The notes under the pieces were generated by a model. The model did not search any database. It was given only the letters and a program-made list of their open reading frames with translations, and was not told the origin of the DNA. From Cyanophora paradoxa CCMP329 (taxonomy: Eukaryota > Plantae > Glaucophyta): DNA of 64,000 nucleotides. This document shows, piece after piece, positions 29,377-63,830 of this stretch. Where the stretch lies: the NCBI GenBank assembly GCA_004431415.1, contig QPMI01000439.1, positions 437,289 through 501,288 of the forward strand, read 5' to 3'. The position numbers and the translations under genes were made by a program. Every line of letters begins with the position of its first letter. Position 1 is the first letter of the stretch.

Positions 29377-29648
29377 CTGCGCGACGAATATTAATGTTCA
29401 TGATTAGAGAAAGCGAGCGGGTGAGATGTTAATTCAGAAGACAGCGTCGGTGCGCCGGCCGGCGGGTTCCAAAATTCTCTTAAGCCTGATCATGAGCGCT
29501 CCCCCCCCCCCGATCCGGGCGATGCAGCGGTGTTTGCATAATTCGAAATTCCCCTTTTTCTTCGTAATCATGATCTCTCATTTTCCCTCTAGATCTCATT
29601 TCAATTCCCTTCAAATTTCGCGAAACGAAAAAATTGAGAGAAGAATAG

Positions 29649-29743
29649 ACACATATTGAAAAACGAATTTAAATCCCTCGTTCATCTCGATCGCTTCGCG
29701 ATCTCGATTCACTCTGGATTTAAATTCGTTTTTCAATATGTGT
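29649..29743. repeat. Perfect 28-bp inverted repeat with 39-nt loop near the left edge of the element
   Basis: acacatattgaaaaacgaatttaaatcc (29649-29676) / ggatttaaattcgtttttcaatatgtgt (29716-29743). Confidence 0.85.
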
Positions 29744-30054
29744 TAATTTAATACTAAAATACATATTTTTCGATTAATTTCTTAAACTTTTTATGCAAAC
29801 TTTGTATAAAATAATGCAAACTTTGTATTAAAAATGAAAACGCGTTTACCAAAATGCATATTTTCGATTAAACTTCGATAGATTCAATTGATCTTATATC
29901 GATTGATTATGTACTTTGTTGTTTACATACAAATCTGCGATAGATTAACATTAAACTGCTTAAAGATCGATATAATTGCGATTAAATTGCATAAATTCGC
30001 ATAAACTCGATATATCTCTCATGTATTGAAGTAGACCACCGCCCATTCTGTATC

Positions 30055-30321
30055 GAAAAACGCAAAAAGTGTCACAGAGTTGCATTGTGTCCAATTGAAC
30101 AATCGATGAGATTGCTGATGTACATTTTTGCACCGAAAAAGTGTCACAGAGTTGCATTATCTCCCATTAAACAATCGATTAGATTGCGGGATTTTCTATT
30201 GGAATATATCGGAACTGCATTATGTCCAATTAAACAATCGATGAGATTGCGGATTTATATTTTAGATCGAAAAAGTGTCACAGAGTTGCATGGTCTCCAA
30301 TTGAACAATCGATTAGATTGC
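30055..30321 (+). repeat. Degenerate tandem repeat, ~4 units of ~60-75 bp
   Basis: Recurrent aaaaagtgtcacagagttgcat...ccaatt(g/a)aacaatcgat(g/t)agattgc. Confidence 0.8.
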
Positions 30322-30429
30322 ATATGTTCTATAAAACAGAATAATTGAATTCAAGTGTGACAGGTAGTATTCAAATGATATTCAGTAATAGATATATTTG
30401 TTTTTGAGAAAGTCAGTAAGAGGGGTAGA

Positions 30430-30850
30430 ATGTCTGTGACAGGTGTGACAGGTGTGACAGGTGTTTTCAGAAGTCTGTCATTTTTGAAAAATTTAGAAAG
30501 TTTGAAAATAGGTGTCACACCTGTCACACCTGTCACACTCAATTAAACTACCTGTCACACCTGGTCTCCTTACCATTTTCAGTAAGACAGAAAGGTATTC
30601 ATGAAATCGACTATTGTTGGGTGGATTTTGAAGGTGTCACACCTGTCACATAGACTGTTTTCAGTAAGACAACAATAAATTCTTGAATATCTCAGTAAGA
30701 AATAGAGTCTTTTGTTAATTGGGTGTGACGGGTGTGACAGGTGTGACAGGTGTTTTCAGAAGTCTGTAATTTGTGAGAATTTTAAAAAGTTTGAAAATAG
30801 GTGTCACACCTGTCACAGGCGTCACAGTCAATTAAATAGGTGTCACACCC
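30430..30850. repeat. Two iteron-like modules: (GGTGTGACA)x3 - AT-rich spacer - (TGTCACACC)x3
   Basis: Modules at ~30430-30565 and ~30721-30850 share the spacer tail aaagtttgaaaataggtgtcacacc. Confidence 0.8.
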
Positions 30851-31008
30851 GATTATCTGACCATTTTCAGTAAGACCATCTGAAATTCTGAATTTCTCAG
30901 TGTCAACTAACTCGGAAATCGCAATACTCTATGTTTCTCCGATTTCTCCAACCCTGAAAACACACCTGTTATTCTCTCATCTATCTCATGAGATACTCTC
31001 GTTTCGCC

Positions 31009-31029
31009 AAAAATTGACAAACGATTTCC
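31009..31029 (+). promoter_or_regulatory. Candidate early promoter AAAAATTGAC-N4-GATTT; related copies at 36667, 37112, 39838 (+) and 45266-45273 (-)
   Basis: Five copies, each ~30-80 bp upstream of a non-structural gene on the same strand. Confidence 0.6.
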
Positions 31030-31049
31030 CATCATGCTGTAAAGGAAAC

Positions 31050-31304
31050 ATGCCGATTAACCAGCAGTATTACAATTACTATGGGCATTACTTCTTGATT
31101 GTCAAGAAACTCCCAGAGCATTATGAGATCTTCCAAGAGATGGGATTGCGAATTACAAGGAGATCAACCCTTTGTAGATTCTTGAAAAAGAATGGTGCTA
31201 AATGGGATAAGACAATTCGCCAATGGTATACAGAAGATCCCAAGAGTCCCTTACTTGATATTTTCGAAACAGTGAATTTGGATCAGTTTAATCATTTCCG
31301 ATAG
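31050..31304 (+). CDS. Small viral protein with DUF5710-like GAKWD...WY motif
   Basis: KKNGAKWDKTIRQWY. ATG at 31050 lies ~32 bp after AAAATTGA. Confidence 0.55.
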   Translation: MPINQQYYNYYGHYFLIVKKLPEHYEIFQEMGLRITRRSTLCRFLKKNGAKWDKTIRQWYTEDPKSPLLDIFETVNLDQFNHFR

Positions 31305-32220
31305 CCAGAAACTCCAACTGGAATGAGTTGTCAATCCCATTCATATCTACAAGATCACCATAATAATCGCGAAACTCAACTGTTAACTCTCTAATCACCA
31401 GGTTTCGATCGGTTATTTTTATGTATTCACTGTGCTCTCCACTGTGATATACATACTGCCCAATATCTTTACTTAACTGCAATCTGAGAATTGCCCCTTG
31501 ATTCTGTGGTTGTGATCTTGGGACAATATTGTGGTTTGTAGCAAATGGGGAGAGTTCTTTAATGTGCATGTATAAATACTGTTCTGCATTCATGTCTGTC
31601 ATCTTGGCTGCTTCTAACTTGTAGTTTAAGCGAGATGCCTCGAATTCATATCCTGTAAATGTTATTCCCCATTGGGGATGGTTTGGGGTGATTGGTATTC
31701 CTGCAAAATAGAGGAAATTCTCGGGAGCATATAAAGACCTTGCAGACTCTGGGAAATCGTAGTTCTGCTCTAATGAAGCGACCCAGTCAACAGAACTCAC
31801 CCCAAGAAGTTTACCCAATCTCTGTGTAGATGCTACCATCTCGAATTGAACATTACTGTAAAACTCTAATTTGTAGGAGGTAGGATTGTAGTAGACCTTG
31901 AATGCATATGTGAGATTGTTGCTCCCAGTAAATGTGAAATTCAGACCATAATTATATGGACTGGTGACCCCGAAATGCCCTTGATTAATATAACCACTTG
32001 GGAGAAGGAAGACCTGCTTGGTTTCAGAGATGCCTTGGTAGTAGAATCTGACAAGAAGGTGATCTGTTCCAATGGAGTTATAGATGCTGTTGGGGATTTC
32101 TGCATACAAAACTCGACATTCTCTTGGTTTGGTCACTGGGGTTGTGAGTGCAACTTTGTAGGAGTTTTCTATTTGTCCATCTGATCGGTCTCTGCTATCT
32201 ATATTGACCAGCCGAATCAT
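31288..32220 (-). CDS. Minor capsid (penton-like) protein 1
   Basis: N-terminal IDSRDR and AEIPNSIYN, YLYMHIKEL, and C-terminal LTVEFRDYYGDLVDMNGIDNSFQLEF, typical of PLV/NCLDV mCPs. Next to the MCP. Confidence 0.8.
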   Translation of the reverse strand: MIRLVNIDSRDRSDGQIENSYKVALTTPVTKPRECRVLYAEIPNSIYNSIGTDHLLVRFYYQGISETKQVFLLPSGYINQGHFGVTSPYNYGLNFTFTGSNNLTYAFKVYYNPTSYKLEFYSNVQFEMVASTQRLGKLLGVSSVDWVASLEQNYDFPESARSLYAPENFLYFAGIPITPNHPQWGITFTGYEFEASRLNYKLEAAKMTDMNAEQYLYMHIKELSPFATNHNIVPRSQPQNQGAILRLQLSKDIGQYVYHSGEHSEYIKITDRNLVIRELTVEFRDYYGDLVDMNGIDNSFQLEFLAIGND

Positions 32221-32248
32221 TTTAATATATGTTTATAGATAAAAGAAG

Positions 32249-33258
32249 ATGCCTGTGGATTACATCGAAGTGAGCTCTTTCAATACAATTTCGGGAGATG
32301 GACCAACTTCGAGTTTTATTGCTCGCCTCCCAAGCACCTATGAATTTGTGAGAGCAGTAAGACTGGTTTCAGCAGAATTCTATAACAGCATTCCCATGGT
32401 GAGTGGTGAAACCAAAGTAGGAGATGTGACAATAGATAATGCAATCTACCTTTATTGGTCTGAATATTATTCTGGTGCAGGAAGCACTGGTATTCCAACT
32501 GATCGACCTGCTGCCGATTATGAGCAATGGAAGCACATTGTGATAAGTCGCAGCACACCCATTCAAAACCACCAACAACTGGTGAATGTAATTAACTCCA
32601 AACTTGCATTGAGAGAGCCACCAGTAGCAATTCGCTGTAAATGGGATGATACACTGAAACGAGTAATATTCCATTCCACCATACCGTTTTACCTGGCTTT
32701 CTCAACTGCAATAAACCCAACCCAGGCGCAGATTCAGAGGTTTTTGAGTTCTGCTCGACTGCTTGGTCTTGATCCTGGGAGATATGGTAACACCCCAATC
32801 CAATCACAAGTTTATAATACTCTGACTGATGGTATCTTTACTGGGTCGATGGTGCATGGTATCATATCTTCATTTGAACCTGAAAAGACCAGGGATAGTG
32901 TTCTGTTTGTGAGAGTAAAGGAGTTGGGTGATCTGGTTCAATGTGGTGATGGTCTCCTCACGGATATTTCCACAAAATCGTTGTTCCAGATAAAGATTAT
33001 GGTGAGCATGTCGTTTATAATTCGACAGAAGCCCATCCGATTTATAAATACTATAACAAGAATCTGGGACTTTCCACATTTTCGGTTGATATTGTGAATG
33101 CAGTTAATGAACCAATTGATTTCGAGGGTCAACCTGTCCACCTCACCTTCGAAATTCGATATGGTGATGAACCTGCTGGTGATCCTGTGTACGAATACTT
33201 CAAGAGGAGAATGGCGGAAACACATCCATCTTATCCGGTTATTGCGAATTTTGCGTAA
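32249..33258 (+). CDS. Minor capsid (penton-like) protein 2, one frameshift near 32990
   Basis: RLVSAEFYNSIP and LFVRVKEL. The shifted frame continues DYGEHVVYNS...FSVDIVNAVNEPIDFEGQPVHLTFEI...NFA*, which aligns with the mCP1 C-terminus. Confidence 0.72.
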
Positions 33259-33312
33259 AATCAAGGATCATTGGTGAATTTTTTATGTTGCAGTATAATA
33301 AAAGAGATAATC

Positions 33313-34686
33313 ATGGATATTACTTCGACCCTCCAACGTCTTTCTCTGAAAGAAGCTCTAACAACCCCGGAAGAAGCCAAGGCGTTCTTCTTGGACAACT
33401 CTCTCATGCTTGGTCTTGAATCCAAGTCGAAGCCAGTTCTTGTTGTTGTGAACCCAAGCAACACTTTCGAGAATAATGCTGGAAATCGCATTTCTTTCAA
33501 GCTCCCTCGCTACAATTTCTGTGGAAAACTCGAACTTGCGTTTGACCTTCCAGCTGTCACTTTTGCTGGTGATACCGACCTTGTTCGCAATGGATACGTT
33601 CGCCCAGTTGGTGCTCTTGTCTCTCGACTTGAAATTACCTATGGATCTTACACCTTCCATGTGCCTTCTGATTTCCTTGCTCATTTCCCTCTTATCTATT
33701 ACAGTGAGGATCAACTCGCCAAGAAGAAGCGTTCAATGGGAATGGTTCATGGTATCCCTGCCCATGGAACCAACCGACTTGGTGGGTCATTTTTCACTGA
33801 AATCCCAGTCCCATGGCTAAACCACTACCTACCTCTTGGTGCTCTCTCAGGAGAAATGGTGGTAACTGTCTGGTTCAAGGATGCTGGAAAGGGTTATGTT
33901 GAGACTTCTTATGGTGGTCGTGCTCTTCCTGTTGTTGGTGGAACAGCTGCTGATAAGACAGAGGATGATGGACTTGGTGCTACTGCTAATGCTACTCTTG
34001 CCCATGTTGGTCAACAAATCACCACTTTTGGAATTGGTGCAACAACAACCCCCGAAATTAAAGTCACTTCTCCTCGTCTTTACATGCATGCTATTAATGT
34101 TTCTGATGAACTGTTTGCTACTGTCATTGAGAAGGTGAAGACCACTGGTATGGCTATTCCTGCTCTGGATATTGGTTTTGTTGACAGTGTCAATTTTGCT
34201 GCAAAAGGCAATGCTCAACCAAATCGTATTAACCTGTCACAGATCTCTGGTCTTGTCTATGGTCTTCTTGTTTCAGTTCGTGATGCCGCAGGTATTGATG
34301 GTTTCAATGGTTCCCACAGTGTCCTAAAAACGCATGCTAACTCAAAAGACATTACTTTCACTGTTGAAATTAATGGTCAACGTCTCTATGCTACTGAGCC
34401 CATCCCTCTCCTCAAAGGTGCCGAATTAATTGCGGATGCCTTCAAGTGCTCAAATATGGACAAGGTTGCAGACAAATATGTCCTCAGTGGTCTACCATTC
34501 TGTGTTGATGGAGAGAAAGCGATTCGCAACATTGCCCAGTCTGGCTATGTTGATCTCACGAACTCCTCCTCTTCTTTCCTTACTCTATACATGCCTTCTG
34601 ACCAGACAATCACAGTTAATGTTCGTGCTCTCATGCACAGTTTCATTATTGTTGACAAAGATGGTCTTCGTCGCATTAATCTGTAA
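33313..34686 (+). CDS. Double-jelly-roll major capsid protein
   Basis: Intact ~457-aa beta-rich ORF with N-terminal GNRISFKLPR and GALVSRLEITYG. Lies between the mCPs and the packaging ATPase. Confidence 0.78.
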   Translation: MDITSTLQRLSLKEALTTPEEAKAFFLDNSLMLGLESKSKPVLVVVNPSNTFENNAGNRISFKLPRYNFCGKLELAFDLPAVTFAGDTDLVRNGYVRPVGALVSRLEITYGSYTFHVPSDFLAHFPLIYYSEDQLAKKKRSMGMVHGIPAHGTNRLGGSFFTEIPVPWLNHYLPLGALSGEMVVTVWFKDAGKGYVETSYGGRALPVVGGTAADKTEDDGLGATANATLAHVGQQITTFGIGATTTPEIKVTSPRLYMHAINVSDELFATVIEKVKTTGMAIPALDIGFVDSVNFAAKGNAQPNRINLSQISGLVYGLLVSVRDAAGIDGFNGSHSVLKTHANSKDITFTVEINGQRLYATEPIPLLKGAELIADAFKCSNMDKVADKYVLSGLPFCVDGEKAIRNIAQSGYVDLTNSSSSFLTLYMPSDQTITVNVRALMHSFIIVDKDGLRRINL

Positions 34687-34748
34687 AACCATTATCAGTA
34701 ACGTTTCGTTATTTTTATCTATCTTTAATAAGAAAGATCTACAAAGCC

Positions 34749-35531
34749 ATGTCTGACGTTCCCGAATTTAATGCTGCTGAGATGATTAAACCCCCTTTTC
34801 GCGTATTAGCAATCGGAAAAAGCGCGACGGGCAAGTCAGAAGCCGTAAAATATTGGCTAAAACAACTTCACGATGCGAAAAAGTTAGATGTTGTTCTTGT
34901 TATAAGTGGGACATCATTCAATCATTTTTGGGATGATGTCGCAACATTACAGCTCGGTAAATGGGATGCGCCTTACATCGCTAAACTTCTCGATGAAAGA
35001 CAAGAGAAAATTGAGAAAGGAGAACCCGTTAATCAATTATGTGTTGTTCTCGATGATCTTATAGACAATGAGATTGTAGACCTTACCCGTGATAAAATTA
35101 TTGGATCTCTGTATTCGCGCGGCCGCCACTCGGCGATTACAATTTTCTGCATAACTCAGAAACTGCGTAAGGTTTCTTCAACCATTCGCGTCAATTCGGA
35201 TTATGCAATGTTCCTCAGTGCCGCCAATCGCAAAGAACTGGAAGCCATTGAAGAAGAATACAATATCATGCGGGATAAAGACGCTTTCTATAAGATGTTT
35301 GAGGAATACGTTCACTCCTATCAGTTTCTCATTTGGAGTTCTGCGAATTATTCGGTGGAATACTACGTTGATAAAGCGGAACTCGTTAAAGACTTTAAGT
35401 TTCCTCGGTTCCACAGGAAGCCCAAAAAGAAAGAGGACGAATTACCACCTCCACAGAAAGAGGAAGCCCCCAAAGAGGTCAAGAGTGGTGTTCATTCGAA
35501 TAAACTGATGCGATATAAGAGAGGTTTATAA
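34749..35531 (+). CDS. A32-like (FtsK-HerA) genome packaging ATPase
   Basis: Walker A GKSATGKS, Walker B VVLDD, SRGRH..ITIFCITQ and IRVNSDY. Confidence 0.95.
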   Translation: MSDVPEFNAAEMIKPPFRVLAIGKSATGKSEAVKYWLKQLHDAKKLDVVLVISGTSFNHFWDDVATLQLGKWDAPYIAKLLDERQEKIEKGEPVNQLCVVLDDLIDNEIVDLTRDKIIGSLYSRGRHSAITIFCITQKLRKVSSTIRVNSDYAMFLSAANRKELEAIEEEYNIMRDKDAFYKMFEEYVHSYQFLIWSSANYSVEYYVDKAELVKDFKFPRFHRKPKKKEDELPPPQKEEAPKEVKSGVHSNKLMRYKRGL

Positions 35532-35559
35532 AATAATCTCTGCTTCTAATAAATATACA

Positions 35560-36294
35560 ATGCCTTCCAAACGCAAAGTTGGTGTTGCTGCTGGTGCTAT
35601 GTCATATTCTGCATCCTCTGGAACCGGTTCTATTAACACAGAGCCCATGAAATTCAATGGTGTCAATGAAGTTAAAGCATCACAGCAACAAGAAGATCCC
35701 CTCAATGCTGCTTACGAAGAATCACCAGATGATAAAGCTCCCCAAGCTTCCACAAGTGACCAGTTGAATATTTCGCCCGAAACCTCTAAGATGAAGGCAG
35801 TTGGTGAAGGTGCTCGTCGAATTATTGGTGCTGCTGATGACAAAGGACTGGGTCTCCAAGATCTGTCCCTTGCTCGCAAAGGTGAAGGTGTATCCAAAGA
35901 ATCAGACAAGGTAATTCAATCCATGGCTGGTGAGGTAACCTACAAGGTCGCACCTACACAGAATATCCATCGAATTCCCAAAGCCCAATGGGACGAAATG
36001 ACTGCGAAACTTAAAGATCTGGAAGCGAAATCCAGTGCTCTTGAACAGTATGTCTCTGAGAAGAAAGAGAGAGCGAAATTAAAGGAGATGCTGCGAAAGG
36101 AGGTGTATAGAATGGGAATCACTGGTCTCCCAGATAAGCAGTTCATTGGTAAGAAAGAGACTCAAATTGATGAGCAGGCAGTTGATGAGATGAAGACCAA
36201 AACCCAGAAGGGCACCATTGAACCTGGTGCTACCAAATCAGAGGTCGATAAAGGTGTTGCCCCAACAGTATATAAACGACGAGTTTGGCTTTAA
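35560..36294 (+). CDS. Viral hypothetical protein, Lys/Glu-rich with a coiled coil
   Basis: Intact 244-aa ORF in the structural block; heptad-like segment EMTAKLKDLEAKSSALEQYV. Confidence 0.7.
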   Translation: MPSKRKVGVAAGAMSYSASSGTGSINTEPMKFNGVNEVKASQQQEDPLNAAYEESPDDKAPQASTSDQLNISPETSKMKAVGEGARRIIGAADDKGLGLQDLSLARKGEGVSKESDKVIQSMAGEVTYKVAPTQNIHRIPKAQWDEMTAKLKDLEAKSSALEQYVSEKKERAKLKEMLRKEVYRMGITGLPDKQFIGKKETQIDEQAVDEMKTKTQKGTIEPGATKSEVDKGVAPTVYKRRVWL

Positions 36295-36321
36295 TTATCT
36301 CGCATTAAGAGAGAGAGCATC

Positions 36322-36555
36322 ATGGATTTCTTGCGAAAACTCATAGAGATGTTCAATCTCCACATTGTGAGCAATTGTCACAGTGGCTGCTGTGAAACCA
36401 AAGTCGAAATCGAATTCTCTGACACTGAGAGTCATGGATCTGGTGGTAGGCGATTATCCACAGATTCGGTGGATTTCGAAGAGCATATTAAAACAGAGAC
36501 AGTGAGGCGCAGGTCTGTATCTTTCACAGATCCGAAATTAAATCTCGGTAATTAA
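36322..36555 (+). CDS. Small viral hypothetical protein
   Basis: 77-aa ORF tightly packed between neighbours. Confidence 0.5.
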   Translation: MDFLRKLIEMFNLHIVSNCHSGCCETKVEIEFSDTESHGSGGRRLSTDSVDFEEHIKTETVRRRSVSFTDPKLNLGN

Positions 36556-36755
36556 TATCGAATGCTCAGTCTCTCTGAGATCTATGCTATCCTTGAAAGG
36601 AAATCCGCTGAATATGCAACAGAAGCCGCAATAAAAAAGCGTAGACAGGAACTGGTCTCGATCTGCAAAAAATGACAAGGGATTTAAGGGTAAGGTGTGT
36701 TTGATTGGTGAACCGGACAAATTATTTTCTCGTCCCATTATAAGGAACATATCAA

Positions 36756-36983
36756 ATGGAAACTGAATCTGTGGTCGAATTCGAACTTGCAATGAGCGAG
36801 GTGGATCCCAATGAGAGGAAAAGGTTGTATGACCGCTTGTATTTCCAGAAACGCTATCAAGATGAGGAATTTCGAGAATTATATCGTAAAAAGGCACTGG
36901 AACGATATTATCGCAGGAAAGCTGCTGAGATGGATCCCAATAATCCAGTGAAACGCCCAGTAGGTCGTCCCAGAAAATACTGA
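36756..36983 (+). CDS. Small basic protein with C-terminal AT-hook
   Basis: Ends KRPVGRPRKY; basic helix ERYYRRK. Confidence 0.65.
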   Translation: METESVVEFELAMSEVDPNERKRLYDRLYFQKRYQDEEFRELYRKKALERYYRRKAAEMDPNNPVKRPVGRPRKY

Positions 36984-37177
36984 ACCGCCCCCAAAGTCCC
37001 AGATATCCGCTGAATCCTTTTTGTTACCATGATCAATCGACTTTTCGATGGATCATTACCATACATCGAGCGCCAATCGGAGAACCCAAAGGTATTTAAA
37101 GGTTAGGCGCCAAAAAATGACAAGCGACCGGAGAAATTAATTTCTCCATTAAGGATAAGAAGCCCCCGATTGTTGAA

Positions 37178-39540
37178 ATGAACGCTGCCGCCAAGAAATC
37201 CCTGAAACGCCTTGTTGAATGGCTTCGTGAAGACGATGTCCTGTCTGAGAATATCGTTATTCCTGTTGATCCTGATACCAAAAAGCCACTTTTCGCTCAT
37301 AAAGACGGAACCTGGTCTTGGGATAAATTCGATGAAGCCCTGAAATCCGGTAAATATACTGCTTGGGGCATTCTCGCTCGTAATATCCTGGTAATTGACT
37401 TCGACCAAGAGGAGGATTTCGCCAAATTCGAGGAGCAATTCCCTGATGATTTCGGTGGTGTTAATCCTCTTGCTAAAACCAAAAAAGGATATCATGCATT
37501 CTTCGCTCGACCTGCTGAATTCGACACCATTAAGATCTGGGATAAAGCGGGTGCATTCAAAGGAAACCCCAAGATCGACTGCAAAACGATTGCATCCACT
37601 GGGACTGCTGGGGTGATTAATGTTTGCCCAGTCCCAACAAAACATGGATCAGAGAGCCATGGGCATCTGAGTGTGAGTTAAATGAACCCACTGCTGAGTT
37701 GCAAAAGTGGATTGTTGAAAACTACGAATTCCCCAAAGGTGCACATTCTTATTATGCAAGGTGCGCTGAGGAGAATTTGCAGAAACATATTCTTTCTAAA
37801 CTCGAAGAATTCGGTTTCATCTTGCCCACAATCATCAATGAGACCAAGATGGGATACAATTTCACTGCTGAGAACAAAGGTCTGGTCTGTCCCTGCTGCA
37901 AGGGAAGCCATGACTCAAACAATTGGTATATTATTCAAGGGAAGGAGAAAGACAAGTACATTGTTTCGAGTTACAGTGCAAACTGCAAGAAGCGAAGCAT
38001 CACTGTTCGTGTGAAGGAAGAGACAGATGTGAAGATCGAAAATCTGATTGATCGGTCTGCTGGATCTGATGGTGCCCATTATGATGTTGCACAGGTTGCC
38101 TATCTTGTTCTGCAAGACAAATACAAGTATTCCAACAAGACCTGGTTCAAGTTCAATGATATATGTGGGATTTGGGAGTTGGATGAAACTGGGAAGCGAA
38201 TCTTTCTCTGTTTGAGCTGCAAGGTCTGTCCAGTTTATCTTCAACGTTCTGTTCAACTCGCACAGAGAGCTCTTCGTGATGAAGAGAACCGCAATTCCTT
38301 GGAGGAAAGGTCAAAGATTCTGCTGGGAATTGCTAAGAGCCTCAAACAGACTACATACAGAACTGCACTTATGTCTGATCTTTCAGTTCTGTTCAGTGAC
38401 AAGACCTTTTTCGAGAGACTTGATACTGTTCCCAACATCATAGGATTCACAAATGGTGTATTTGACTTGAACTCCATGACTTTTCGACAGGGACTCCCAG
38501 ATGATATGGTGAGCAAGACTGTTGGCTACGATTATACCACAGAAATCGACCAAGAGAAGGTTGCAAAGATTAAGTCCATCTATGCAGATATTATTGAATC
38601 GGATACAGACCGCGAATTTATGTTGGGATTAATCGCCTATGCCCTGAGTGGTTTGACAGAAAATCAGAGATACACTTGTTGGACTGGAATTGGAGCAAAT
38701 GGGAAATCTCTGCTCCAAGAGTTGGTGAAAGACACATTTGGTGAATACTATGGGTCACTGGATATGACCTATTGGACGAAACCCAAGAAGAGTTCATCAG
38801 AGGCTTCCCCAGAACTCGCTTGCATCCTTGGTAAACGAATTGTTTTCAGTAATGAAGCAGAAGATGGTGATATGCTTCAACTGAACAAAATCAAACAAGT
38901 TACTGGTGGGAATGAGATGAAGGTTCGAACTCTATTCAAAGATCTTGTAACATTCATTCCCATGTTCCAGTTGTTCTTGTCTACAAATGACAATCTGGGA
39001 ATCAGTAAACCAGATGCAGCAATCCAAAGGCGAATTATCTACTACCGATTCGAAAATGTCTTCAAGGTGGAACCTCAACCTGGTGAGAAGAAGGCAGACA
39101 CCACTCTCATGCGCCTCATGAAGAATGATGATGATTATAAAATGGCGCATATGTCCATTCTCCTGGAAATGTGGAGAACCCATTCTCTCAATACATTCGT
39201 CACCAAACCTCCCCAGTCCATTGTTGATCAAGGTATGGAGTATTTCAATGAGAATGACAAGATTGGAGAGTGGATTCGAGAGAATTATGAACTCACCAAG
39301 AGTCAAGGCGATTTCACTACAAGTGAGTCCATCATGAGTGACTTCAAGAGAGACCACATGGGCAAATCTGATGAGAAAATCTCAGATTGCACCATTATGA
39401 AGAGACTTCGCGAAGTCTTTAATGTGAAGTCTGACAGAAAACGAGTGAATGGTGTACTTTGCCGTGGTTACTTTGGGATCATAAAGAAGCATGGTCGCAG
39501 ATTGATGGATGACAGTGATGAGGAGGTTGGGGATGAGTAA
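37178..39540 (+). CDS. Bifunctional primase-polymerase (Prim-Pol/AEP) + Zn module + D5-like SF3 helicase; frameshift near 37628
   Basis: AEP motifs LVIDFD, TKKGYHAFF and IDCKT; CPCCKGSH; IGFTNGVFDL; Walker A GIGANGKS; VFSNE; IKQVTGG; LSTND; AIQRR. Confidence 0.92.
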
Positions 39541-39605
39541 ATAAAACGGAATCAATACTTATACTGTGAATTTCTAATTTTTTAAAACCCTTACTGTAAA
39601 TGGTT

Positions 39606-51311: not shown

Positions 51312-52355
51312 ATGACCTCTCTATTAGAAATCCCAAACTATGAACTTGCAGCCAAATCACTGCACAGCACCTCTCATGGAGTAGTTGATTCAACCCCTGG
51401 GTATATTTGTACTGAAACTTCAAGTAATACCTCTTTCACAGAGAATAATATACTCAGAGTCAAAGAAATTCGATGTGATAGGAATGGAGGCAAGATAAGA
51501 ACCACAGGAATTATTATCTCGAATAAAAATCAGGTTCAAGCAGGTCAAGTAGTCCCAGATTCAGCAATATATGATAATGTAGGTGGATTTACCACAGCAC
51601 AGATAGTTTCTTTTGGTAACACAAGTAATACTTCCGCTCTTGTAGTCAAGAGTGGAGGAGCATACTTTGGAGAGGCATTAAAGGTGAATGGAACAGTAAC
51701 AGCATCCATACTAAATGCTGGAAGTGGAATGTTTGAGAGTCCAATAAATTTTGAGGGTGGATATAATGCGAGTAGTTTTTCAGTTGGTGTTGGTGTCTTT
51801 TCCACAATGTTAAACACACCTGAAATTGAATCATCGAATGCACTCAATATCAAGAGAAATGCAGTGGTTACAGCAACCATAAACAATGTTTCCCCTTCAA
51901 TAAATCTAATTAAATATCTGAAAGCTCCTCACCCTCGGTTTTGTATTGTAAATTATTCAACATCAGCAGTTACTGTGGGAACCACATCAACAGCAAGAAG
52001 ATTCGCTTTTAACAGAACTCTTGTGGATGCAAGCAATAATATCACATTATCCACAGGCACCTTTACAGCACCTGTGTCCGGAATTTATAGATTCTTCTTC
52101 ATTGTTCAAATGTCAACAGCTTCATCAACAGGGGAGTGTAGAGTTGCATTTAGAAAGAATGATTTGGCTCTTTCCCTCAATCGGTTCAAGAATTTTCAAC
52201 TTACAATGGAAGGCGAAGTGTTCATATGGAGGCTTCTTTTGCTGTATATGCGAACGAATTTGTGAATGTTATACAAACCTGGACATCGTCCATGCAATAT
52301 GATGCTACAATACAAGGTATTACCTGTTTGGGGGCATCTCATCAGTAGATTATAA
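51312..52355 (+). CDS. Fibre/spike protein A: shared N-terminal domain + C1q-like tip (3' frameshifts)
   Basis: SFTENNILRVKEIRCDRNGGKIRTT, LVVKSGGAYFG and FNRTLVD...STGTFTAPVSGIYRFFF. Confidence 0.75.
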
Positions 52356-52377
52356 ACTTTTTGTTGGGAATTTATAG

Positions 52378-53398
52378 ATGGCTACCCAAATTGCAGTTCC
52401 TGTTTTCTGTTATGCAGCACCTAAATTGCATCAACTGAACCACACAGTTACAGATGCTATTCCCGGGTTTATTTGCACAGAAACCACAGGAGCAGATTCG
52501 TTTACTCAAAATTCGATTATCAGATGCAAGGAGATTCGATGTGATAGAAATGCTGGAAAAATAAGAACCACACAATTAATCGTAAGTAACAAGAATCAGG
52601 TGTTAACAGGTGGTGTAGTTGCTGATGCAGCTATTTATGATGATGCAGGTGGGGTGACCACACCACAGATTGTTACTTTTGATGGGACAGAAAATAATGC
52701 AGCACTTGTAGTTAAATCAGGTGGAGCATGGATAGGTTCGGGAGCTTTTGTGAATGGAACACTCTCAGCTGCAAACGTCTCAATTTCAGGCCAAACGACA
52801 TTTACAGGTGTTGTGAATGCAAATGGTGGTCTTTTTGTTCCTACTTATACAGTCCCTGTGATGACCACAACCACAAAGATTCAAACACTGAAATAGATAC
52901 AGGAGCAAATGTAGATCTCATTCTGAAACGCAATAGCACAGAAGTCGCACGAATTGATGCAGGGGGTCTTACAATCGCAGCAACTTTTATTTGAAGCAAG
53001 AAACCCAACCTCGATTTTGTGTTGGGTTTGGTGTAGCAACAAGAAGTGGAGTATATGGGCGTCTTACTAATTGGTTGCATGAATTCTTTGATAATACCAA
53101 CTCATTTGATGTAGTAGAAGGGAAATTCACAGCGCCTATAAGTGGAGATTATAGATTCTCTCTTAATTCTTATAGTATTGTTACCTCATCTGTGAGTGTA
53201 GATCTGAAAGTAAATGATCAGAATGTTTCAACAGAATTCAATTTCAGGGTAAACAACTCACAAACAGTAACCAACAAAACAATCATTTTGAGCGCAATAC
53301 TCAGACTTGGAGCCGGGGATAATGTCTCTATTTATGCTGTTGATACTTCCATTTCAGAATTCACAACGTTTAGTGGCGAATTGCTGAGCATAATTTAA
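52378..53398 (+). CDS. Fibre/spike protein B: paralogue of A with C1q tip (frameshifts near 52890 and 52990)
   Basis: SFTQNSIIRCKEIRCDRNAGKIRTT, FDNTNSFD..EGKFTAPISGDYRFS, ILRLGAGDNVSIY and FSGELL. Confidence 0.8.
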
Positions 53399-53417
53399 TT
53401 TCTACAAGTAGTTTAGA

Positions 53418-53681
53418 ATGTCGAATATATACCAAGTAGTTCTGACTGATACCGAAAAGTTGGGAATGGAATATTGCGCTGCTTCTGTTCAGGACTGGAT
53501 TGATAATGCTGCCCACAACAGGGCAAGAATCGCAATTGATGAGATTGTTCAGAAAGAGATCCAATCTTGCATCTCATCAGGAGTTCAGATACCAACCTCA
53601 AAGGAAGCGATTGTATTACAGGCATTCCAAAGGGGAACTGTAAAGAAAGGCATCGAGTATAACAATGTCACAGAAGAGTAG
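53418..53681 (+). CDS. Small helical protein, putative fibre-assembly chaperone of phage type
   Basis: Intact 87-aa ORF LTDTEKLGMEY.AASVQDWIDNAAHNRARIAIDEIV, immediately after a C1q fibre gene. Confidence 0.55.
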   Translation: MSNIYQVVLTDTEKLGMEYCAASVQDWIDNAAHNRARIAIDEIVQKEIQSCISSGVQIPTSKEAIVLQAFQRGTVKKGIEYNNVTEE

Positions 53682-53719
53682 TGTACATTATTTTTCTTTC
53701 CTTCTTAGTAAAAGAAGCA

Positions 53720-54563
53720 ATGGGTGAATATAATCGAGTTCAACTTCCAATATATTCCTTGGATCCCCTGCTATGCACTTTCGCCAGCATGAAGTTAATG
53801 ATGAGGTTCGTGGTTTAGAATCCACAGAGAGACCCAATTCCAATGGTAACTCTTTTGATAAGAATTCGATTATTCGAGTTAAAGAACTGAGAGCAGACAA
53901 GAATTCGGGTGTGGTTAAAACAACTCGACTCCTTGTCTCAAATGCGAACTTCTTCCAACCCACTAATGGAGGTCTGATGCTTACAGTGTAGACCTGAAAG
54001 CCCTCGATTTTGACAAGAATTCTGCTGCTGTAACTGTGAGATCAGGTGGAGCATTTATTGGTGGTGGTTGCAGAGTTTCAGGTCAACTCTCCTCATCAAT
54101 TGCATACAATGATGTCCCAGATACTCTTGAACAGAATGTTGAAGACCCACAACGAATTCGATTATATATACCAGTTGCACAACAGCCAATTATTCAATTT
54201 TACCAAGGTTATACTGTCACACTTGAAAACTCTGAATTGATTGAAGGAACCAAAAGAGTAATGAGAGGGCTGGTCATTCCTTCTGCAATGCTTTCTTTAT
54301 GTAGAGCCAACAATAACCAGCCAGGTCACAGATACAATTTCAGTGTTCAAGGATATGATCATTTCGGCACAGGGTTCTGTGTTTATAATAACAATTTCAC
54401 CTATGATCTGTTTGTTACAGATATTGGAAAATATACAATTACAGTTATGGGTATCAGAACAGATATAGCTGCTGTCTCAGCTCTAAGAGGTGTTACTCCT
54501 GATACTCTTTCTCAAACAGGGTTTTACCAGGAACCAGATGTGATTGATAACCCAACCCCATAA
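53720..54563 (+). CDS. Fibre/spike protein C: same N-terminal domain, unrelated C-terminal domain (frameshifts)
   Basis: SFDKNSIIRVKELRADKNSGVVKTT and VRSGGAFIG. Confidence 0.7.
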
Positions 54564-54586
54564 ATTATATATTACTTTAATGTAAA

Positions 54587-54617
54587 ATGGCTGCCCCAGT
54601 AGAGCGAATTATTACAC
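54587..54617 (+). pseudogene. 5' stub of a viral ORF interrupted by the LINE
   Basis: gtaaaATG GCT GCC CCA GTA GAG CGA ATT ATT ACA runs directly into T13. Confidence 0.55.
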
Positions 54618-56239
54618 TTTTTTTTTTTTTCAGTAATCCCTAGTGTATTAGGGGACTGGTGCCCCAAGTTGACAAACAGCTAATGCTATCTGCCTACCCT
54701 AGGCCTAAGCCTACAAACACACGACAAGTCTAGCTTACCTCCCCCCTATTGGGTCTCCAGCTAGACTAACCCCGAGGGAATCTCCCTACTGCGAGCCCTA
54801 CCCCCTAAGGCCACTCTTGCGGCCCTCGGTGGGGCCTCCCCCAGCGGCCGCGCGAGCGCGGCCATTGGGGGGGTGGGGTTGGGGGTGGGGAGCTGGGGCC
54901 GGAGAGTTTATTGGGGCAGGGCCCCGGAGGATTTATTGCGCACCGCCTCTGCGGTGCGAGCGCCGCCGGGCGCGGGGCCCCCGGGGGAGGGGTTGGGGCC
55001 CCCCATCCGGCGGCGGGTCCCGCCCTGCAGGCTGCCAGCGGCGTGGCAGCCTGCACCTGCGCGGGCGGGACCGGACCTGGCGCAGGCAGGCAGGCCACGC
55101 CCGAGGGGCCTGCTCTCCTCCAGGAGTGGGCCTCTCAAGCGCGAGCGTGGCGTCAGCCCGGCGCGCGCGGGCAGGGAGTGCACACTTTGGGCTCAGGGTC
55201 TGTAGCCCAGCGGGGAGAGGCCGAAGATGAGGAGGGACTGGATGAGGTCGCCGCGGTGGAGCAGGGGGTGGTACCTTGGGGGGCAGAGAAGGGGGTACGG
55301 GGCTCGGTGGAGGCGGCGGTGACGGCCCAGGGGGTGTAGGCAGAGGGGACATCGGTCTGGGGGCGGGAGTGCCTCGGGGTGGAGCTGGCGCGCGCGGGCG
55401 GAAAACTCGAATGGGGGCGGTGGTGCGGGGACCGAGGGCGGTGCCGGCGGTGGTGGGGGGGCCCGGCGGCGGGGGGCGCGGGCTGGCGGGGCGGGGCCGG
55501 TCTTGCGGTTCGACGGGTGACGGCGGTGTGGGGGGGTCAGAGAGGCTCGCCGAGGCGGGGGGTCCGGGGGGGGCGGTCCTGTGGATCAGGGGCTGGGACA
55601 GCCGGACCTGCACGTCGGGCTCCGCGGTCTCCACGTGCAAGAAGATTGTTGCGGGCGGAGGTGAAGCCGGCCGAGTCACGGAGGGCGGCCAGCTCACGCT
55701 CGCGGCGCGTGAGGCGGCGGGGTAGCGGGGCTGGCTGCGGGGAGGGGAGGAGGCTGGGGGGTGTGGGGGGGAGGGGGCTGGGGGGAAGGGGGGGGAGACG
55801 GGGCCGGGGACGGTGGAGGGGCCGGTCGGGCGGGCGAGGGGAGGGGGCCGGGGGTGGCGGAGGTCCGCTGGGGGCGGGGGCGGCGGGGAGTCCGGAGGGG
55901 GAGGGGGCAGTTGCGAGTCGGGGCCGGGAGAACGGGGGAGAGACCGACCGCGGACCGGAAGTAGGATTGGAGGGGCGCATCGCCACGGTCGTCCTCTGCC
56001 GCGGCCTTTGCCGCGGCCCTTACCGGGTCGAGCTGTGCCGGCACCTAGTCGGGAGGAAGGGCCTGTCGCCTCCGGTCGGCCTGTCGGAGGTGGGCGAGGC
56101 GAGGCGGGGGGCGGGGCGGGGCGTGGGGGGGGCGGGGGGTCCGGGGCTCGCGGCGGCGGGGGTGGAGCCGGAGCCGGAGGGGGCTGGGGCGGACCTCTGG
56201 GGCCGGGTCCGGGTGCTGGGGGCCGTTGGCTTGTGGCTA

Positions 56240-56860
56240 GGATTCGGGTGAGGATGAGGCTGCGCCAGTGGGCGCAGCACCGGCTGCTGCCATCGAAGGG
56301 CGAGTTGGGGTCCGTGAGCGCGTCTTCTTGGCCCCGGACCAGGGCGTCTGCCAGGGCACAGACAATTACACCGCAGCTGAAGCGGTCCCGTTGTTCGGGG
56401 ATGGGGTACCTGGTGGCCGATGCAAGCGGCCAGGCGGTGGGGTCGTCTGAGGGGAGGTTGCGTTCCCGGCGCTCGAGCTGGAGCCAGCGGAGAATCGGGG
56501 CCAGCTTCTCTCGAGCCGACTCTGCGTTTGGCAGGTTGTAGGCATCATAGAGTTCGGCTCGACGGTCACGTACGTGGATCGCAGCGAAGGTCCAGTGGCC
56601 CGGTGAGTGGATCGGGAAGAGCAGAACATCGAAGTCGAACGGGCTGACCCGCGGGCTACCAGCTTGTTGTGAAGGCGCTGGGGGCCTCGGCCTGGCGCGG
56701 AGAGGTTAGGGTACTCAAGCGAGTCAAAGATTAGTGGACGGCGGGCCAGGGCAGGGAGTTGGGCGAGGAGGGCGAGGTAGAAGACAACGGTCTCGTCGTC
56801 TAACCAGGTCTCACCATTGAGCCGACTGAGAGATCTCCTCGTGACGTTGATGCTGCCCGA
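56240..56860 (-). CDS. Ulp1/SENP (C48) cysteine protease domain in the LINE; one frameshift near 56650
   Basis: LSRLNGETWLDDETVVFYLALL; the shifted frame gives FDVLLFPIHSPGHWTFAAI, ELYDAY and IPEQRDRFSCGVIVC (His, Asp, Gln and Cys all present). Confidence 0.88.
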
Positions 56861-58899
56861 GGTACCGAGCAGCGGCGAGGAGATCTGTCGGAGTACTTCC
56901 TGCGCAGGCTTTAGCGGGCCGGGTCGGGTCTGTGCCCACGCTAGGCGGACCTCTTCGGACGGCGGCAGGGGGGGCCACGGGCTGGGCTGCGGGCGGGTCG
57001 GGGCCGCGGGCAAGGGTGAGTGCCGGGGCTCCGGCGGGTGAGGCGCTGGGGGGCTCAGGGGGGGTGGAGGGTTAAGCTGGGGGGCTGAGCTCACGGGAGG
57101 GGCGTCCGATCGCGAGGTTGCTTTGAGGTTCGTGGGCGGGCTGTGCGGGCTGTCTGCGGCGACATTCATCAGGTCATGGGCGTCGGGCGGGGAGGGCGGG
57201 CAAGCTGGACGGTCTGTGCTCGACCGGCCTACTGCTGAGTGCGCATCGCGCGCTGGCGCTGCGTCGGCTGGAGACGGGCGCGTTCCGGTACGCTTGGGGG
57301 TACCGGAATACTACTGACCGGCACTACGGGTGCGGGCTGCGGGTTCGGGTCCGGCTGGGGGCGTGTCTCCCGGCGCGGCGGCTTCTTCGGCGGGCCGCGG
57401 GGTCTGTTGCTGGCGGGGTCGAGGCGCCGTCAGAGTCCGACGCGTGAGGCCACAGCGGCGCTGCCAGGCTTGGACGTCCGAGTTTCGCGCCTGCCAAATC
57501 TCCTGGAGCCCAGTCACAAGTACATCAAAGATCCCGTTCGCGCATTTCCGAGCAGCGGGGCGCGGACATGAAGGTACTCGAGGGCCGGGACCAGACTGCG
57601 GGGAGGAGCAGCCGGACGGACAGGCGGGGCGAGTCGTGCGAGAGGTCGGTGAAAAGGGCCTGTCCGTGAGTCAGCCAGCGGGAGGGGAGCCGTAGAGACA
57701 GGCACGGAGGTGGGGGGTACAGGCCGGGTCGCGAGCGTTCGTGCACGTCTGACGCCAGCGGCGTTCGTCAGCGAGGGCGAAGGCGGGAAATAGGTCGCGG
57801 AGGAACAGGCCGTCCGACTTCAGGCCGTCCGGGAGCTCGTACCTCGTTGCGGCGACTTTAGTCTCTGCGTGGTGATCGTTGTGTGGAGGAGGTTGTAAAT
57901 CTTGGATTGCATAGCGAGCCGGGCCGCTTGCGATGCCAAACAAAGGCCGAAGGCGTGGTCGTGGGTCTCGGGTTGACTCGCGCTGTGGAGCGCCGGCGGG
58001 GGTCGCGGTCTGCGGTTGCGGCGGCTCCTGGGTCGCGCCTCGGTGCCCAGGGGGTGCCGGGATGGGCCGCCGGAGGCGTCGGCGACGCGAGCGCACCCAG
58101 GGCGTACGCACAGGCCTTGCGGGTTGATGTTGCCGTAGAGGTGTGGGGCATCGCGGGCACGGACAGGTAGGAGGGCGCGAGTTCCATGCTGAATTTGGTG
58201 AGCTGCGCAAGCGGGCATTGAACGGGCTGACGCGTCGCGGGAGGCGCCTGCTTACGGAATTCGCGCGCGAGCCGTGCCGTCGGCCGGGGCGCCGAGCCAC
58301 GAGGATTCAAGCGACGTCAGCCGCACGAAGTTACGCATTCGCAGACGGCGCGGACGTGGGCCGGGGGTCGGACTCGACGCGGTACGCTCTGCTGGAGTCG
58401 TACCCTCCAGGCTCCTGCGGGGGGGTGAGAAGAGGAGACGAACTCGAACCCGCCGGGGGAAAGAGGGGCTCACGCCGTGCTAGCCATGCACGTTTGCGGC
58501 AGCCGAGACGGCGGGTCGGATGCGACTGCGGGATCTGCCTGCCAGGTGGCGCTCTCGACGTCAGCCCAGGCATTGAGGCCGTGGCCATCGCTGCAGACCT
58601 TGGAGAACGGGGCGCAGGGGTGCAGGGCGAGTGCCGCTGCGGCGAGGCGGTCGGCTCGGTGGTTATCCGGTCGTACGCATCATTCAGTACCCTCTCCATG
58701 CGTTGGGCGATCGGGAGGCCGGCGAGGGCGGGAACGTGGGGCCGAGAGCCGCGAGCGCGTCTCGACGGCGCTGGCGTTCCTCCCGGCGCGCCGTGCGGTC
58801 TGACGTTCGATCTGGTGGAGAATGCGTCGAGTCTCGCGGCGGCGGAGGTGAGCAGTGCGCGCACGGATGTGCTCGACAGGTAGTTATAGCGCCCGAAAG

Positions 58900-63199: not shown

Positions 63200-63830
63200 T
63201 ACTCGGCGAGTACCGGGAAGTGGTCGGACTCGTAGGGCGCGTGGCGGGGGGATACCTGAACTGCCCGGAGTCCCGGCCCCGGCTGCCGTGGACTGGAGAA
63301 TGTAGTCGAGCCGAGCAGCTGTCCGCAGGTGGCCCGTCGCAGTGATCCCTCGCGGCTCAGGCCCGCGCTGTTTGTCGGGGAAGATGAAGGTGATCTGATC
63401 GTCCGTGCCCGCCAGCTTCGCAGCGTCGCGCAGGTTCCAGGCGCTCTCGCTGAGAAGCTCTCTCCACCAGCGATGCTCCGGTTCGTGTGAGCTGGCGTAG
63501 CGCGCGTTGCGGATCCGGCCGGTCGCCGGGCAGACACAGCTGTTTGAAGTCACCGAGCAGGAACAGGTGCGCCTTGTGTCGGGCCGCCCAGTCGGCGAGG
63601 ATGTTTTTTCGCATGTACTCGATGATCCGGGCGCTCTCCGTGTTTCGCTGAGGTGCGGCTTTCTCCCGGCGGCAGGTACACGCTCGCTACGAAGACCTGC
63701 ACGTTGTCCGCGAAGCGCAGCTCGCACCGACGACTCGCCCCGGCATTGAGTAGGTGCGGAAGCAGTGCTTCGCCATGTCCGCGACAGCAGCAGCGCAACG
63801 CCTGACCCGCGCGCAGACGGCTCCTTGGGG
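63200..63830 (-). CDS. APE-like endonuclease domain of LINE ORF2 (frameshifted)
   Basis: GSGVALLL, VASVYLP, LLGDF(N), RLDYIL and SDHFPV. Confidence 0.9.

What the first reader, a model, noticed from the sequence alone, without database searches (positions are those of the whole stretch)
29600..54617. Endogenous Polinton-like virus combining two replication systems, an integrase, a lipase and phage-type fibres
Seen: one AT-rich insert encodes MCP, two mCPs, A32 ATPase, PrimPol-SF3 helicase, Maverick-type pPolB, rve integrase, patatin-discoidin and at least four fibre genes; no adenain-type protease is visible in the window. Known: classical Mavericks have pPolB + rve + protease but usually no primase-helicase, and many PLVs have a primase-helicase but no rve. 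Inference: a hybrid, possibly undescribed lineage of integrating DJR virus with an unusually elaborate attachment/entry module.
Basis: partly seen in the sequence, partly recalled or inferred. Interest (0 to 1): 0.88.

Follow-up and report, generated by a model that had tools for sequence, protein, structure and literature searches.

The report
Algal provirus with proofreading-less polymerase, helicase
A 25-kb Polinton-like virus of an already catalogued family, inserted in what is likely a glaucophyte alga's genome, carries a DNA polymerase whose proofreading domain has lost its catalytic motifs and about 90 residues, next to a primase-helicase gene, so the two likely work as one copying machine, as proposed for the unrelated virophage mavirus, rather than as two separate systems.

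Summary
The gene inventory is largely confirmed. One insert (29649-54617, GC about 0.41 against 0.65) holds a double-jelly-roll capsid gene, two likely pentons, A32, Prim-Pol/SF3, pPolB, rve, patatin-discoidin and four fibre-type genes. No protease was found, and a poly(A)-tailed retroelement cuts off the right end. Short-read contigs cover all core modules at a similar 15-22 times the host-flank depth, so this is likely a multi-copy family, not a chimera. The lineage is not undescribed: its capsid family is in Bellas 2023 (Cyanophora paradoxa), its accessory genes are in Bulzu 2025, and pPolB + rve + SF3 helicase is the mavirus set. New here: this Maverick-type pPolB keeps its vOTU and polymerase motifs but has lost the exonuclease motifs and about 93 residues, unlike every relative measured. 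None of 88 loci with related polymerases carries an SF3 helicase. It is likely an independent case of the published 'exonuclease loss with helicase gain' pattern; a transient two-replicase state remains possible. This scan earlier noted hairpin ends, iterons and replicase swaps on sister elements elsewhere in this genome, but no note on exonuclease loss was found.

The parts
29649..29743 (.). 95-nt terminal palindrome marking the left end
   Evidence: self-BLAST 82%; folds at z -9.3/-9.7 against 200 shuffles; left junction bridged by host-depth contigs in 2 of 4 runs, and a contig of another run leaves the element at 29648 into other GC-rich DNA
30054..30321 (.). four ~62-nt direct repeats in the left end region
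   Evidence: family D15
30424..30876 (.). two palindromic blocks of a 9-nt repeat (iteron-like) in the left end region
   Evidence: 88-91% identical to 39590-39761; 18 copies of the word in the insert, 0 outside it, shuffled mean 0.13
31050..31304 (+). small ORF, weak DUF5710 hit
   Evidence: E 0.004, below cut-off
31288..32220 (-). minor capsid protein 1 (likely penton)
   Evidence: Atlas 0.97-0.98 to viral clusters incl. Sputnik V18/19
32249..33258 (+). minor capsid protein 2 (probable; two pieces in the window)
   Evidence: weak; Foldseek found nothing
33313..34686 (+). double-jelly-roll major capsid protein, Cyanophora-type family
34749..35531 (+). A32-like packaging ATPase
   Evidence: Pfam E 5e-9; motifs
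35560..36555 (+). two ORFans (244 and about 77 aa)
   Evidence: no significant family
36560..36983 (+). small basic protein ending in an AT-hook-like GRPRK motif (motif name recalled), in two pieces
37121..39540 (+). Prim-Pol / SF3 (D5-like) primase-helicase, two overlapping pieces in the window
   Evidence: DxD, GxH and Walker A/B/C motifs present
39590..39761 (.). palindromic 9-nt iteron-like block directly after the helicase gene; candidate origin
39895..40086 (+). 63-aa ORF ahead of the polymerase
   Evidence: no Pfam hit
40143..43412 (+). protein-primed DNA polymerase B: TP-like region, vOTU with Cys and His, degenerate exonuclease with EndoVII-like insert and ~93-aa deletion, palm motifs A/B/C kept; in pieces in the window
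43585..45087 (+). rve (DDE) integrase
45422..46074 (.). cassette with 35-bp inverted arms, 29-nt repeats and an inner palindrome; rare among copies
   Evidence: contig 45474-45784 at 2x host-flank depth
46382..47940 (-). patatin phospholipase followed by a discoidin (F5/8 C) domain, four pieces
   Evidence: GxSxG and DGA motifs visible
47968..51292 (+). long fibre-type gene (acidic and His-x-His repeats, PTR repeats, H-type lectin); contiguity inferred across pieces
51312..52345 (+). fibre-type gene 2: shared N-domain + C1q
52378..53398 (+). fibre-type gene 3: shared N-domain + C1q
53418..53681 (+). 87-aa ORF in the fibre block
   Evidence: no convincing family
53719..54563 (+). fibre-type gene 4: shared N-domain + unknown C-domain
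54618..64000 (-). not part of the virus: GC-rich element with a 14-nt poly(A) tail and a Ulp1/C48 domain, likely a non-LTR retrotransposon, that interrupts the right arm
   Evidence: C48 E 1e-9; endonuclease/RT-like motifs seen by eye only, Pfam negative on 42 fragments

Best explanation
This is one integrated copy of a Polinton-like virus, likely of the glaucophyte Cyanophora and likely multi-copy, whose protein-primed polymerase has lost its exonuclease motifs and about 93 residues while keeping its polymerase motifs, and which likely replicates with that polymerase and the neighbouring primase-helicase acting as one machine. Shown: the gene set, the exonuclease decay, the kept catalytic motifs of palm, vOTU, primase, helicase and integrase, the hairpin left end, and the repeat block placed after the helicase gene and again in the left end. 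Inferred: after excision the SF3 helicase loads at the repeat blocks and unwinds the DNA; the exonuclease-less pPolB does the bulk synthesis, primed by its terminal-protein domain, the hairpin end or the Prim-Pol domain; rve inserts progeny into the host genome. A32 would package the DNA into an MCP/penton capsid without a maturation protease. The lectin- and C1q-tipped fibres would bind a cell surface, and patatin-discoidin would help cross a membrane.
For: Exo II HNxxx[YF]D is in 117 of 120 homologues and absent here; Exo I Y-A-D-F-E aligns to Y-V-K-M-D; the FxDS-to-YGLD spacing is 32 aa against 115-175 in 98 of 120 measurable homologues. In 57 of 88 measurable loci, FxDS-to-motif A is 170-252 aa against 99 here. 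A contig of a divergent copy (17 differences) crosses the deletion point without a gap (run X20 record 20). Palm motifs and vOTU Cys/His are kept. Listed differences between copies are mostly synonymous: 12 of 17 in pPolB and 7 of 13 in SF3, against about 0.21 expected. Single-contig depth in run X1 is 15-22x the host flank from mCP1 to patatin. 0 of 88 loci with related polymerases (20 of them 9 kb or longer) have an SF3 hit; the profile finds its positive controls. Published: exonuclease loss accompanies helicase gain in mavirus and pPolB-S1H fusions (PMC11071308).
Against: No biochemical or expression evidence. The helicase carries an apparently intact primase and a matching repeat block, so it could replicate the genome alone; terminal palindromes are reported to go preferentially with non-pPolB replicases. 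Two-replicase genomes are read as transient by Barth 2026 and by the Halocafeteria preprint. No listed contig bridges helicase, repeat block and polymerase, so their linkage in sister copies rests on equal depth and on the lack of strong loose ends in cut tables. The substitution rows are a best-supported subset (72 of more than 600) and are not independent. Most control loci are short. OmPLV has a helicase with an intact exonuclease, so the rule is not two-way. The polymerase is a very long branch (2.13 against a median of 0.11), and motif C reads H-D-T-D.
Confidence: 0.55

Rival explanations
1. Replicase turnover in progress: the Prim-Pol/SF3 gene with its repeat block and the hairpin ends copy the genome by themselves, while the pPolB-rve pair is a co-inherited, transpoviron-like module kept mainly for integration, end repair or occasional use, and is slowly decaying.
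For: The repeat block is tied to the helicase and echoed in the end; hairpin terminus; papers describe such double states as transient. 15 of 88 loci with related polymerases also carry an rve similar to this one, so pPolB-rve travels as a unit. Capsid and fibre modules are swapped among siblings (loose ends at 33258 and 36301).
Against: Decay is confined to the exonuclease, while TP-like, vOTU and palm regions show mostly synonymous differences. No repeats bracket the pPolB-rve pair as a separate unit. All core modules sit at similar depth.
Confidence: 0.3
2. The pPolB no longer polymerises and is kept for its terminal-protein and vOTU domains or as a structural partner; the Prim-Pol domain or a host or giant-virus polymerase does the synthesis.
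For: Long branch; atypical residue before DTD in motif C; the clearest synonymous excess (8 of 8) is in the N-terminal piece.
Against: Catalytic aspartates of motifs A and C, motif B and the KxY motif are all kept; 4 of the 5 listed differences in the first third of the C-terminal piece are synonymous.
Confidence: 0.1
3. Chimera of two adjacent or nested elements, or an assembly artefact: a helicase-type PLV on the left and a Maverick-like element on the right.
For: Nested and tandem elements are reported, including one contig from this host's assembly (EVE_QPMI01_83); no contig spans the whole stretch.
Against: One capsid module and one integrase; no internal hairpin end; flat GC across modules, 0.38-0.45; similar depth on both sides of the supposed joint in X1, and the same picture in the other DNA runs.
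Confidence: 0.05

Closest known systems
Cyanophora paradoxa endogenous PLVs (Bellas 2023, PMC10120064; Bulzu 2025, PMC12220804)
   Same: MCP family: P0001 (59-60% identical) is itself in Table S2, and another listed MCP matches 41 of the first 44 residues (read by eye). A32, rve, pPolB, D5 helicase, lipase and no protease match Table S6; patatin-discoidin and PTR/H-lectin fibre are named in the text.
   Different: In the parts read, the family is unnamed and unclassified; the tables give counts per gene, not co-occurrence per element, and the exonuclease state is not mentioned.
Mavirus and low-GC EMALEs (PMC11071308, PMC8547959, PMC3671162)
   Same: rve + pPolB lacking most of its exonuclease + separately encoded SF3 helicase + a lipase; AT-rich inserts in a GC-rich protist genome, often hit by retrotransposons.
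   Different: Mavirus has a virophage capsid and a protease, and its SF3 protein is described as having no other recognisable domain. Here the polymerase belongs with EndoVII-insert Maverick-type enzymes, keeps a recognisable exonuclease remnant, and the helicase has a Prim-Pol domain.
Maverick-Polintons / adintoviruses with EndoVII-insert pPolB
   Same: TP-like region, vOTU, EndoVII-like insert and palm; 34-41% identity in the palm; similar rve neighbours.
   Different: Relatives keep the exonuclease and show no SF3 within the fetched flanks; unrelated MCP; no adenain seen here.
Multi-replicase polisuviruses (Barth 2026, 10.64898/2026.10.13.758929; Halocafeteria, 10.64898/2026.07.28.741278; Tyrannomonas PLVs, PMC12747079)
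   Same: pPolB together with a D5/AEP primase-helicase or a mavirus-like helicase in one genome; terminal palindromes (Halocafeteria).
   Different: The first two read them as transient or tandem states; no exonuclease analysis in the passages seen. Here the layout looks multi-copy and under selection.
Monoraphidium neglectum PLV (Yutin 2015, PMC4642659)
   Same: [quoted passage not shown]
   Different: No exonuclease loss or primase-helicase pairing mentioned in the passages read.

Membership tests
Polinton-like viruses (operational: DJR MCP + mCP + A32, 15-45 kb) | double-jelly-roll MCP | tested here: met
   published HHpred 98.5% for P0001
Polinton-like viruses | minor capsid protein | tested here: met
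   mCP1 by Atlas features; the second mCP remains weak
Polinton-like viruses | A32-like ATPase | tested here: met
Polinton-like viruses | terminal inverted repeats | not testable with these tools
   right end lies beyond the retroelement; no genome held; no copy of the left end in 54001-64000
Cyanophora EVE family of Bellas 2023 | MCP in the Cyanophora-specific clusters | tested here: met
   which of the two clusters (272 or 94 copies) was not determined
Maverick-Polintons (Polintoviricetes) | pPolB and rve | tested here: met
Maverick-Polintons (Polintoviricetes) | Maverick-type MCP | tested here: not met
   only 2 homologues in 1.84 billion representatives, both of the Cyanophora type; Bellas Table S4 counts this host's MCPs only under the iterative-HMM columns
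Maverick-Polintons (Polintoviricetes) | adenain-like maturation protease | tested here: inconclusive
   none in the visible part and 0 in nine protease columns for 156 glaucophyte EVEs, but the right arm is missing
Maverick-Polintons (Polintoviricetes) | 5-6 bp target-site duplication | not testable with these tools
   right junction not in the window
Mavirus-like virophages | exonuclease-less pPolB + separate SF3 helicase + rve | tested here: met
   (works-like test only)
Mavirus-like virophages | virophage-type MCP and cysteine protease | tested here: inconclusive
   low-confidence model ranks iridovirus and PBCV-1 above mavirus; no virophage MCP among sequence hits; MCP-VIR 0 of 156 in Bulzu Table S6; no protease seen. 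Not filed here.
Mavirus-like virophages | dependence on a giant virus | not testable with these tools
   needs experiments
Aquintoviricetes or the Nucleocytoviricota-related PLV groups of Bellas and Sommaruga 2026 | MCP HMM cluster and A32 phylogeny | not tested
   their HMMs are not available here; no close A32 relative was found in IMG/VR

The most novel reading that the evidence does not exclude
A third, independent conversion of a protein-primed polymerase into a proofreading-less partner of a helicase, caught half-way in a Maverick-type enzyme. Because the helicase brings its own primase and an iteron origin and the genome ends in hairpins, the polymerase would have left end-priming for a primase-driven, origin-fired fork, a small-scale model of the step from Polinton-type to giant-virus-type (PolB + D5) replication.
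Probability: 0.25. Interest if true: 0.72.

Novelty: new variant of a known kind. Interest (0 to 1): 0.45.

Why it matters
The virus family and the gene set are known, so the inventory is ordinary. What may matter is the polymerase. Krupovic 2024 proposed from two lineages that exonuclease loss and helicase gain compensate for each other. This element would be an independent case in a different polymerase clade, with exonuclease-intact relatives at 34-41% identity as natural controls and the remnant still alignable. That makes the proposal directly testable by enzyme assay and by a census of sister elements in one culturable alga. It also gives a simple criterion (exonuclease state) for telling stable from transient 'two-replicase' genomes.

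Tried and rejected
No host genome is held, so no census of sister copies. MCP relatives: none in IMG/VR or JGI metagenomes. A32, SF3 and rve: none in IMG/VR by pattern scan. PDB sequence searches for A32 and Prim-Pol were uninformative. AlphaFold models were poor (pLDDT 37 and 32), and Foldseek found nothing for mCP2. BLASTP of mCP1 against the first mCP2 piece was not significant. The D5_N search of relatives' whole records reached only 1 of 5 handles, without a match. The pPolB tree is a quick tree of 38 rows (window, 30 of the first 40 homologues, 7 of 8 loci; the rest dropped as the palm could not be cut out), has no outgroup and does not place the window's long branch. No RNA holder was listed; the one guessed-RNA run laid gave only sparse pieces, so nothing is claimed on expression. 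No listed contig bridges the virus-retroelement junction (table cut). Pfam did not confirm reverse transcriptase or endonuclease in the right neighbour. Rejected: the neighbouring Ulp1 domain as the virus's missing protease, because it lies in GC-rich DNA beyond the poly(A) tail. No complex prediction was run, since no direct binding is claimed. Earlier-findings look-ups by sequence and by nearby place returned nothing.


Full report
Boundaries and host. GC drops from 0.55-0.71 to 0.36-0.44 between about 29.6 and 54.6 kb. The left end is a 95-nt imperfect palindrome at 29649-29743 that folds far better than all 200 shuffles (z about -9.5). Contigs at host-like depth bridge the left junction in runs X3 and X14, and a contig in X20 leaves the element at 29648 into different GC-rich DNA, which fits a second insertion site. 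On the right the AT-rich DNA stops at 54617, at a 14-nt T run followed by GC-rich DNA with a Ulp1/C48 domain on the minus strand. This is likely a non-LTR retrotransposon; endonuclease- and RT-like motifs were seen by eye only, and Pfam found neither in 42 fragments. No copy of the left end lies in the rest of the window, so TIR, TSD and the right arm cannot be tested. The closest MCP is a Cyanophora paradoxa gene model (59-60%), so the host is likely that glaucophyte; no genome is held.

Gene inventory. A32, Prim-Pol, D5/SF3, pPolB with an EndoVII-like insert, rve, patatin, F5/8 C, PTR, H-lectin and C1q are all detected, with catalytic motifs visible. The MCP has only two homologues among 1.84 billion representatives, but ESM Atlas features and Foldseek on a poor model point to double-jelly-roll capsids. 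mCP1 is supported by Atlas; mCP2 only weakly. The fibre block holds one long repeat-plus-lectin gene (contiguity inferred across pieces) and three paralogues with a shared N-terminal domain. No protease family was found in 33 large and 53 smaller frames. Many genes are in pieces in the window; where the cut tables show it, the multi-copy short-read contigs do not share those breaks, so they are likely assembly errors or private to this copy.

One element or a chimera? In run X1, single contigs from mCP1 through MCP, helicase, polymerase, integrase and patatin have 15-22 times the depth of the host-flank contig (17 sampled places). Depth is not a true copy number and the flank is assumed single-copy, but the evenness argues for a family of about twenty similar copies sharing all core modules. 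There is one capsid module, one integrase, no internal hairpin end and flat GC. No listed contig bridges helicase and polymerase, because a repeat block lies between them, so linkage in sister copies is inferred. Mosaicism is visible elsewhere: loose ends at 33258 and 36301 show the MCP-A32 block in other contexts, two fibre genes sit at about 11x, and a cassette at 45422-46074 has an inner contig at only 2x.

Is the lineage undescribed? No. Bellas 2023 (PMC10120064; main-text parts 2-3 and supplementary rows read) counts 366 MCPs in C. paradoxa in two clusters. Its Table S2 lists P0001 itself and an MCP matching 41 of our first 44 residues (by eye). Bulzu 2025 (PMC12220804; passages, section 11 and Table S6 read) covers 156 glaucophyte elements: pPolB 49, D5_N 40, Prim-Pol 8, PIF1 34, rve 85, tyrosine recombinase 0, lipase 89, all nine protease columns 0. 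It names patatin-discoidin fusions and a PTR/H-lectin fibre from this host, and treats phage-like fibres as common in PLVs. The table gives no per-element co-occurrence. The replication set is also published: mavirus and low-GC EMALEs have rve, pPolB and an SF3 helicase (PMC8547959 and PMC3671162, passages); Halocafeteria virophages have pPolB plus a D5 primase-helicase and terminal palindromes (10.64898/2026.07.28.741278, passages); five Tyrannomonas PLVs have mavirus-like helicases (PMC12747079, passages). Barth 2026 shows multi-replicase genomes, one from the QPMI01 assembly (10.64898/2026.10.13.758929, parts 1-4 of 5, figures not seen). Yutin 2013 calls pPolB with a primase-helicase uncommon. 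Bellas and Sommaruga 2026 (10.64898/2026.06.19.733378, parts 1-3 of 5) gives the current groups; I could not place this family in them. Starrett 2021 (PMC8502044, passages) already noted adintovirus-like genes in this host's contigs.

The polymerase's closest relatives are Maverick-type enzymes with the EndoVII-like insert, 34-41% identical over the palm. It aligns with them over the TP-like region and keeps the invariant vOTU Cys and His (domain names from PMC11071308, passages and section 11) and palm motifs A, B, C and KxY. The exonuclease is gone. Exo I Y-A-D-F-E aligns to Y-V-K-M-D. Exo II HNxxx[YF]D, present in 117 of 120 homologues, is absent. The FxDS-to-YGLD spacing is 32 residues against 115-175 (median 125) in the 98 of 120 that could be measured. 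In 57 of 88 fetched loci that could be measured, FxDS-to-motif A is 170-252 residues against 99 here; 52 of the 57 matched Exo II, and the other five have normal spacing. The deletion is in frame, and a contig of a divergent copy crosses it without a gap (X20 record 20). An SF3 profile that finds its controls hits none of the 88 loci, only 20 of which reach 9 kb. Among 72 best-supported differences between the window and the contigs (of more than 600; not independent), 12 of 17 in the polymerase and 7 of 13 in the helicase are synonymous, against about 0.21 expected, so both genes look maintained. A quick tree puts the polymerase on a very long branch and cannot place it.

Mechanism. Krupovic 2024 states that exonuclease loss in pPolB is accompanied by helicase gain, S3H as a separate gene in mavirus and S1H fused in PLVs, and treats these as independent losses. 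This element fits that pattern in a third polymerase lineage; independence is inferred from its nearest relatives being exonuclease-intact, not from a rooted tree. I therefore read the pair as one replisome (0.55). The helicase would load at the palindromic 9-nt repeat blocks that follow its gene and recur in the left end (88-91% identical; 18 copies against 0.13 expected; the origin reading is taken from earlier notes of this scan and is untested). The polymerase would elongate from a terminal-protein, hairpin or primase-made primer, and rve would integrate the product. The main rival (0.3) is turnover in progress, with the primase-helicase self-sufficient. It is favoured by the intact primase motifs, the hairpin end and the published reading of double states. 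It is disfavoured by decay confined to the exonuclease and by the absence of repeats bracketing pPolB-rve. OmPLV, with helicase and intact exonuclease (PMC12721341, passages), shows that the rule is not two-way. The entry role of lipase and fibres is the standard inference (PMC4642659, passages).

Novelty. Searches turned up no paper describing an exonuclease-deleted EndoVII-type pPolB or the exonuclease state of Cyanophora elements. The pMVRE survey (PMC13215967, passages) covers palm-only pPolBs related to mavirus and does not mention Cyanophora in its main text. Figures and supplements of the preprints, Zenodo files and subscription papers were not visible and may contain it. Verdict: a new variant of a known kind; the inventory is ordinary, the polymerase state is the part worth following. 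Interest 0.45.

Noticed in passing
window 45422-46074: Cassette with 35-bp inverted arms, 29-nt repeats and an inner palindrome (45811-45930); a contig inside it has about 2x host-flank depth against 15-22x for the rest, so it is a rare allele or a small inserted element. No clear target-site duplication.
   Followed up: partly
window 33258 and 36301: Loose ends in three runs mark the edges of the MCP-A32-ORFan block, which sits among different neighbours in sibling families.
   Followed up: partly
window 51632-54309: The fibre block is mosaic: genes 2-3 at about half the family depth, 53176-54309 at much higher summed depth, so probably shared with other families.
   Followed up: partly
window 47061-47925 (-): The patatin pieces score against the CBASS cGAMP-activated phospholipase model (E 3e-11 and 9e-13, far below its cut-off); probably just patatin kinship.
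   Followed up: no
window 54618-64000 (-): Poly(A)-tailed GC-rich element with a Ulp1/C48 protease domain at its 3' end and a second Ulp1-like stretch near 56400-56700; about 5x host-flank depth in X1. A retroelement carrying a SUMO-protease domain.
   Followed up: partly
window 30054-30321: A second repeat type in the left end region, sharing the core GTGTCACA with the 9-nt blocks; very high summed depth, so shared by many siblings.
   Followed up: no
window 36560-36983 and 39895-40086: Two small ORFans flank the helicase cassette: a basic protein with an AT-hook-like end, and a 63-aa protein ahead of the polymerase; candidates for origin-binding or loader roles.
   Followed up: no
window 18073-18408 and 17373-24497: Host flank has a 149-nt near-perfect tandem duplication, an (AGCTA)n run and many TCTAGATC-type short repeats.
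   Followed up: no
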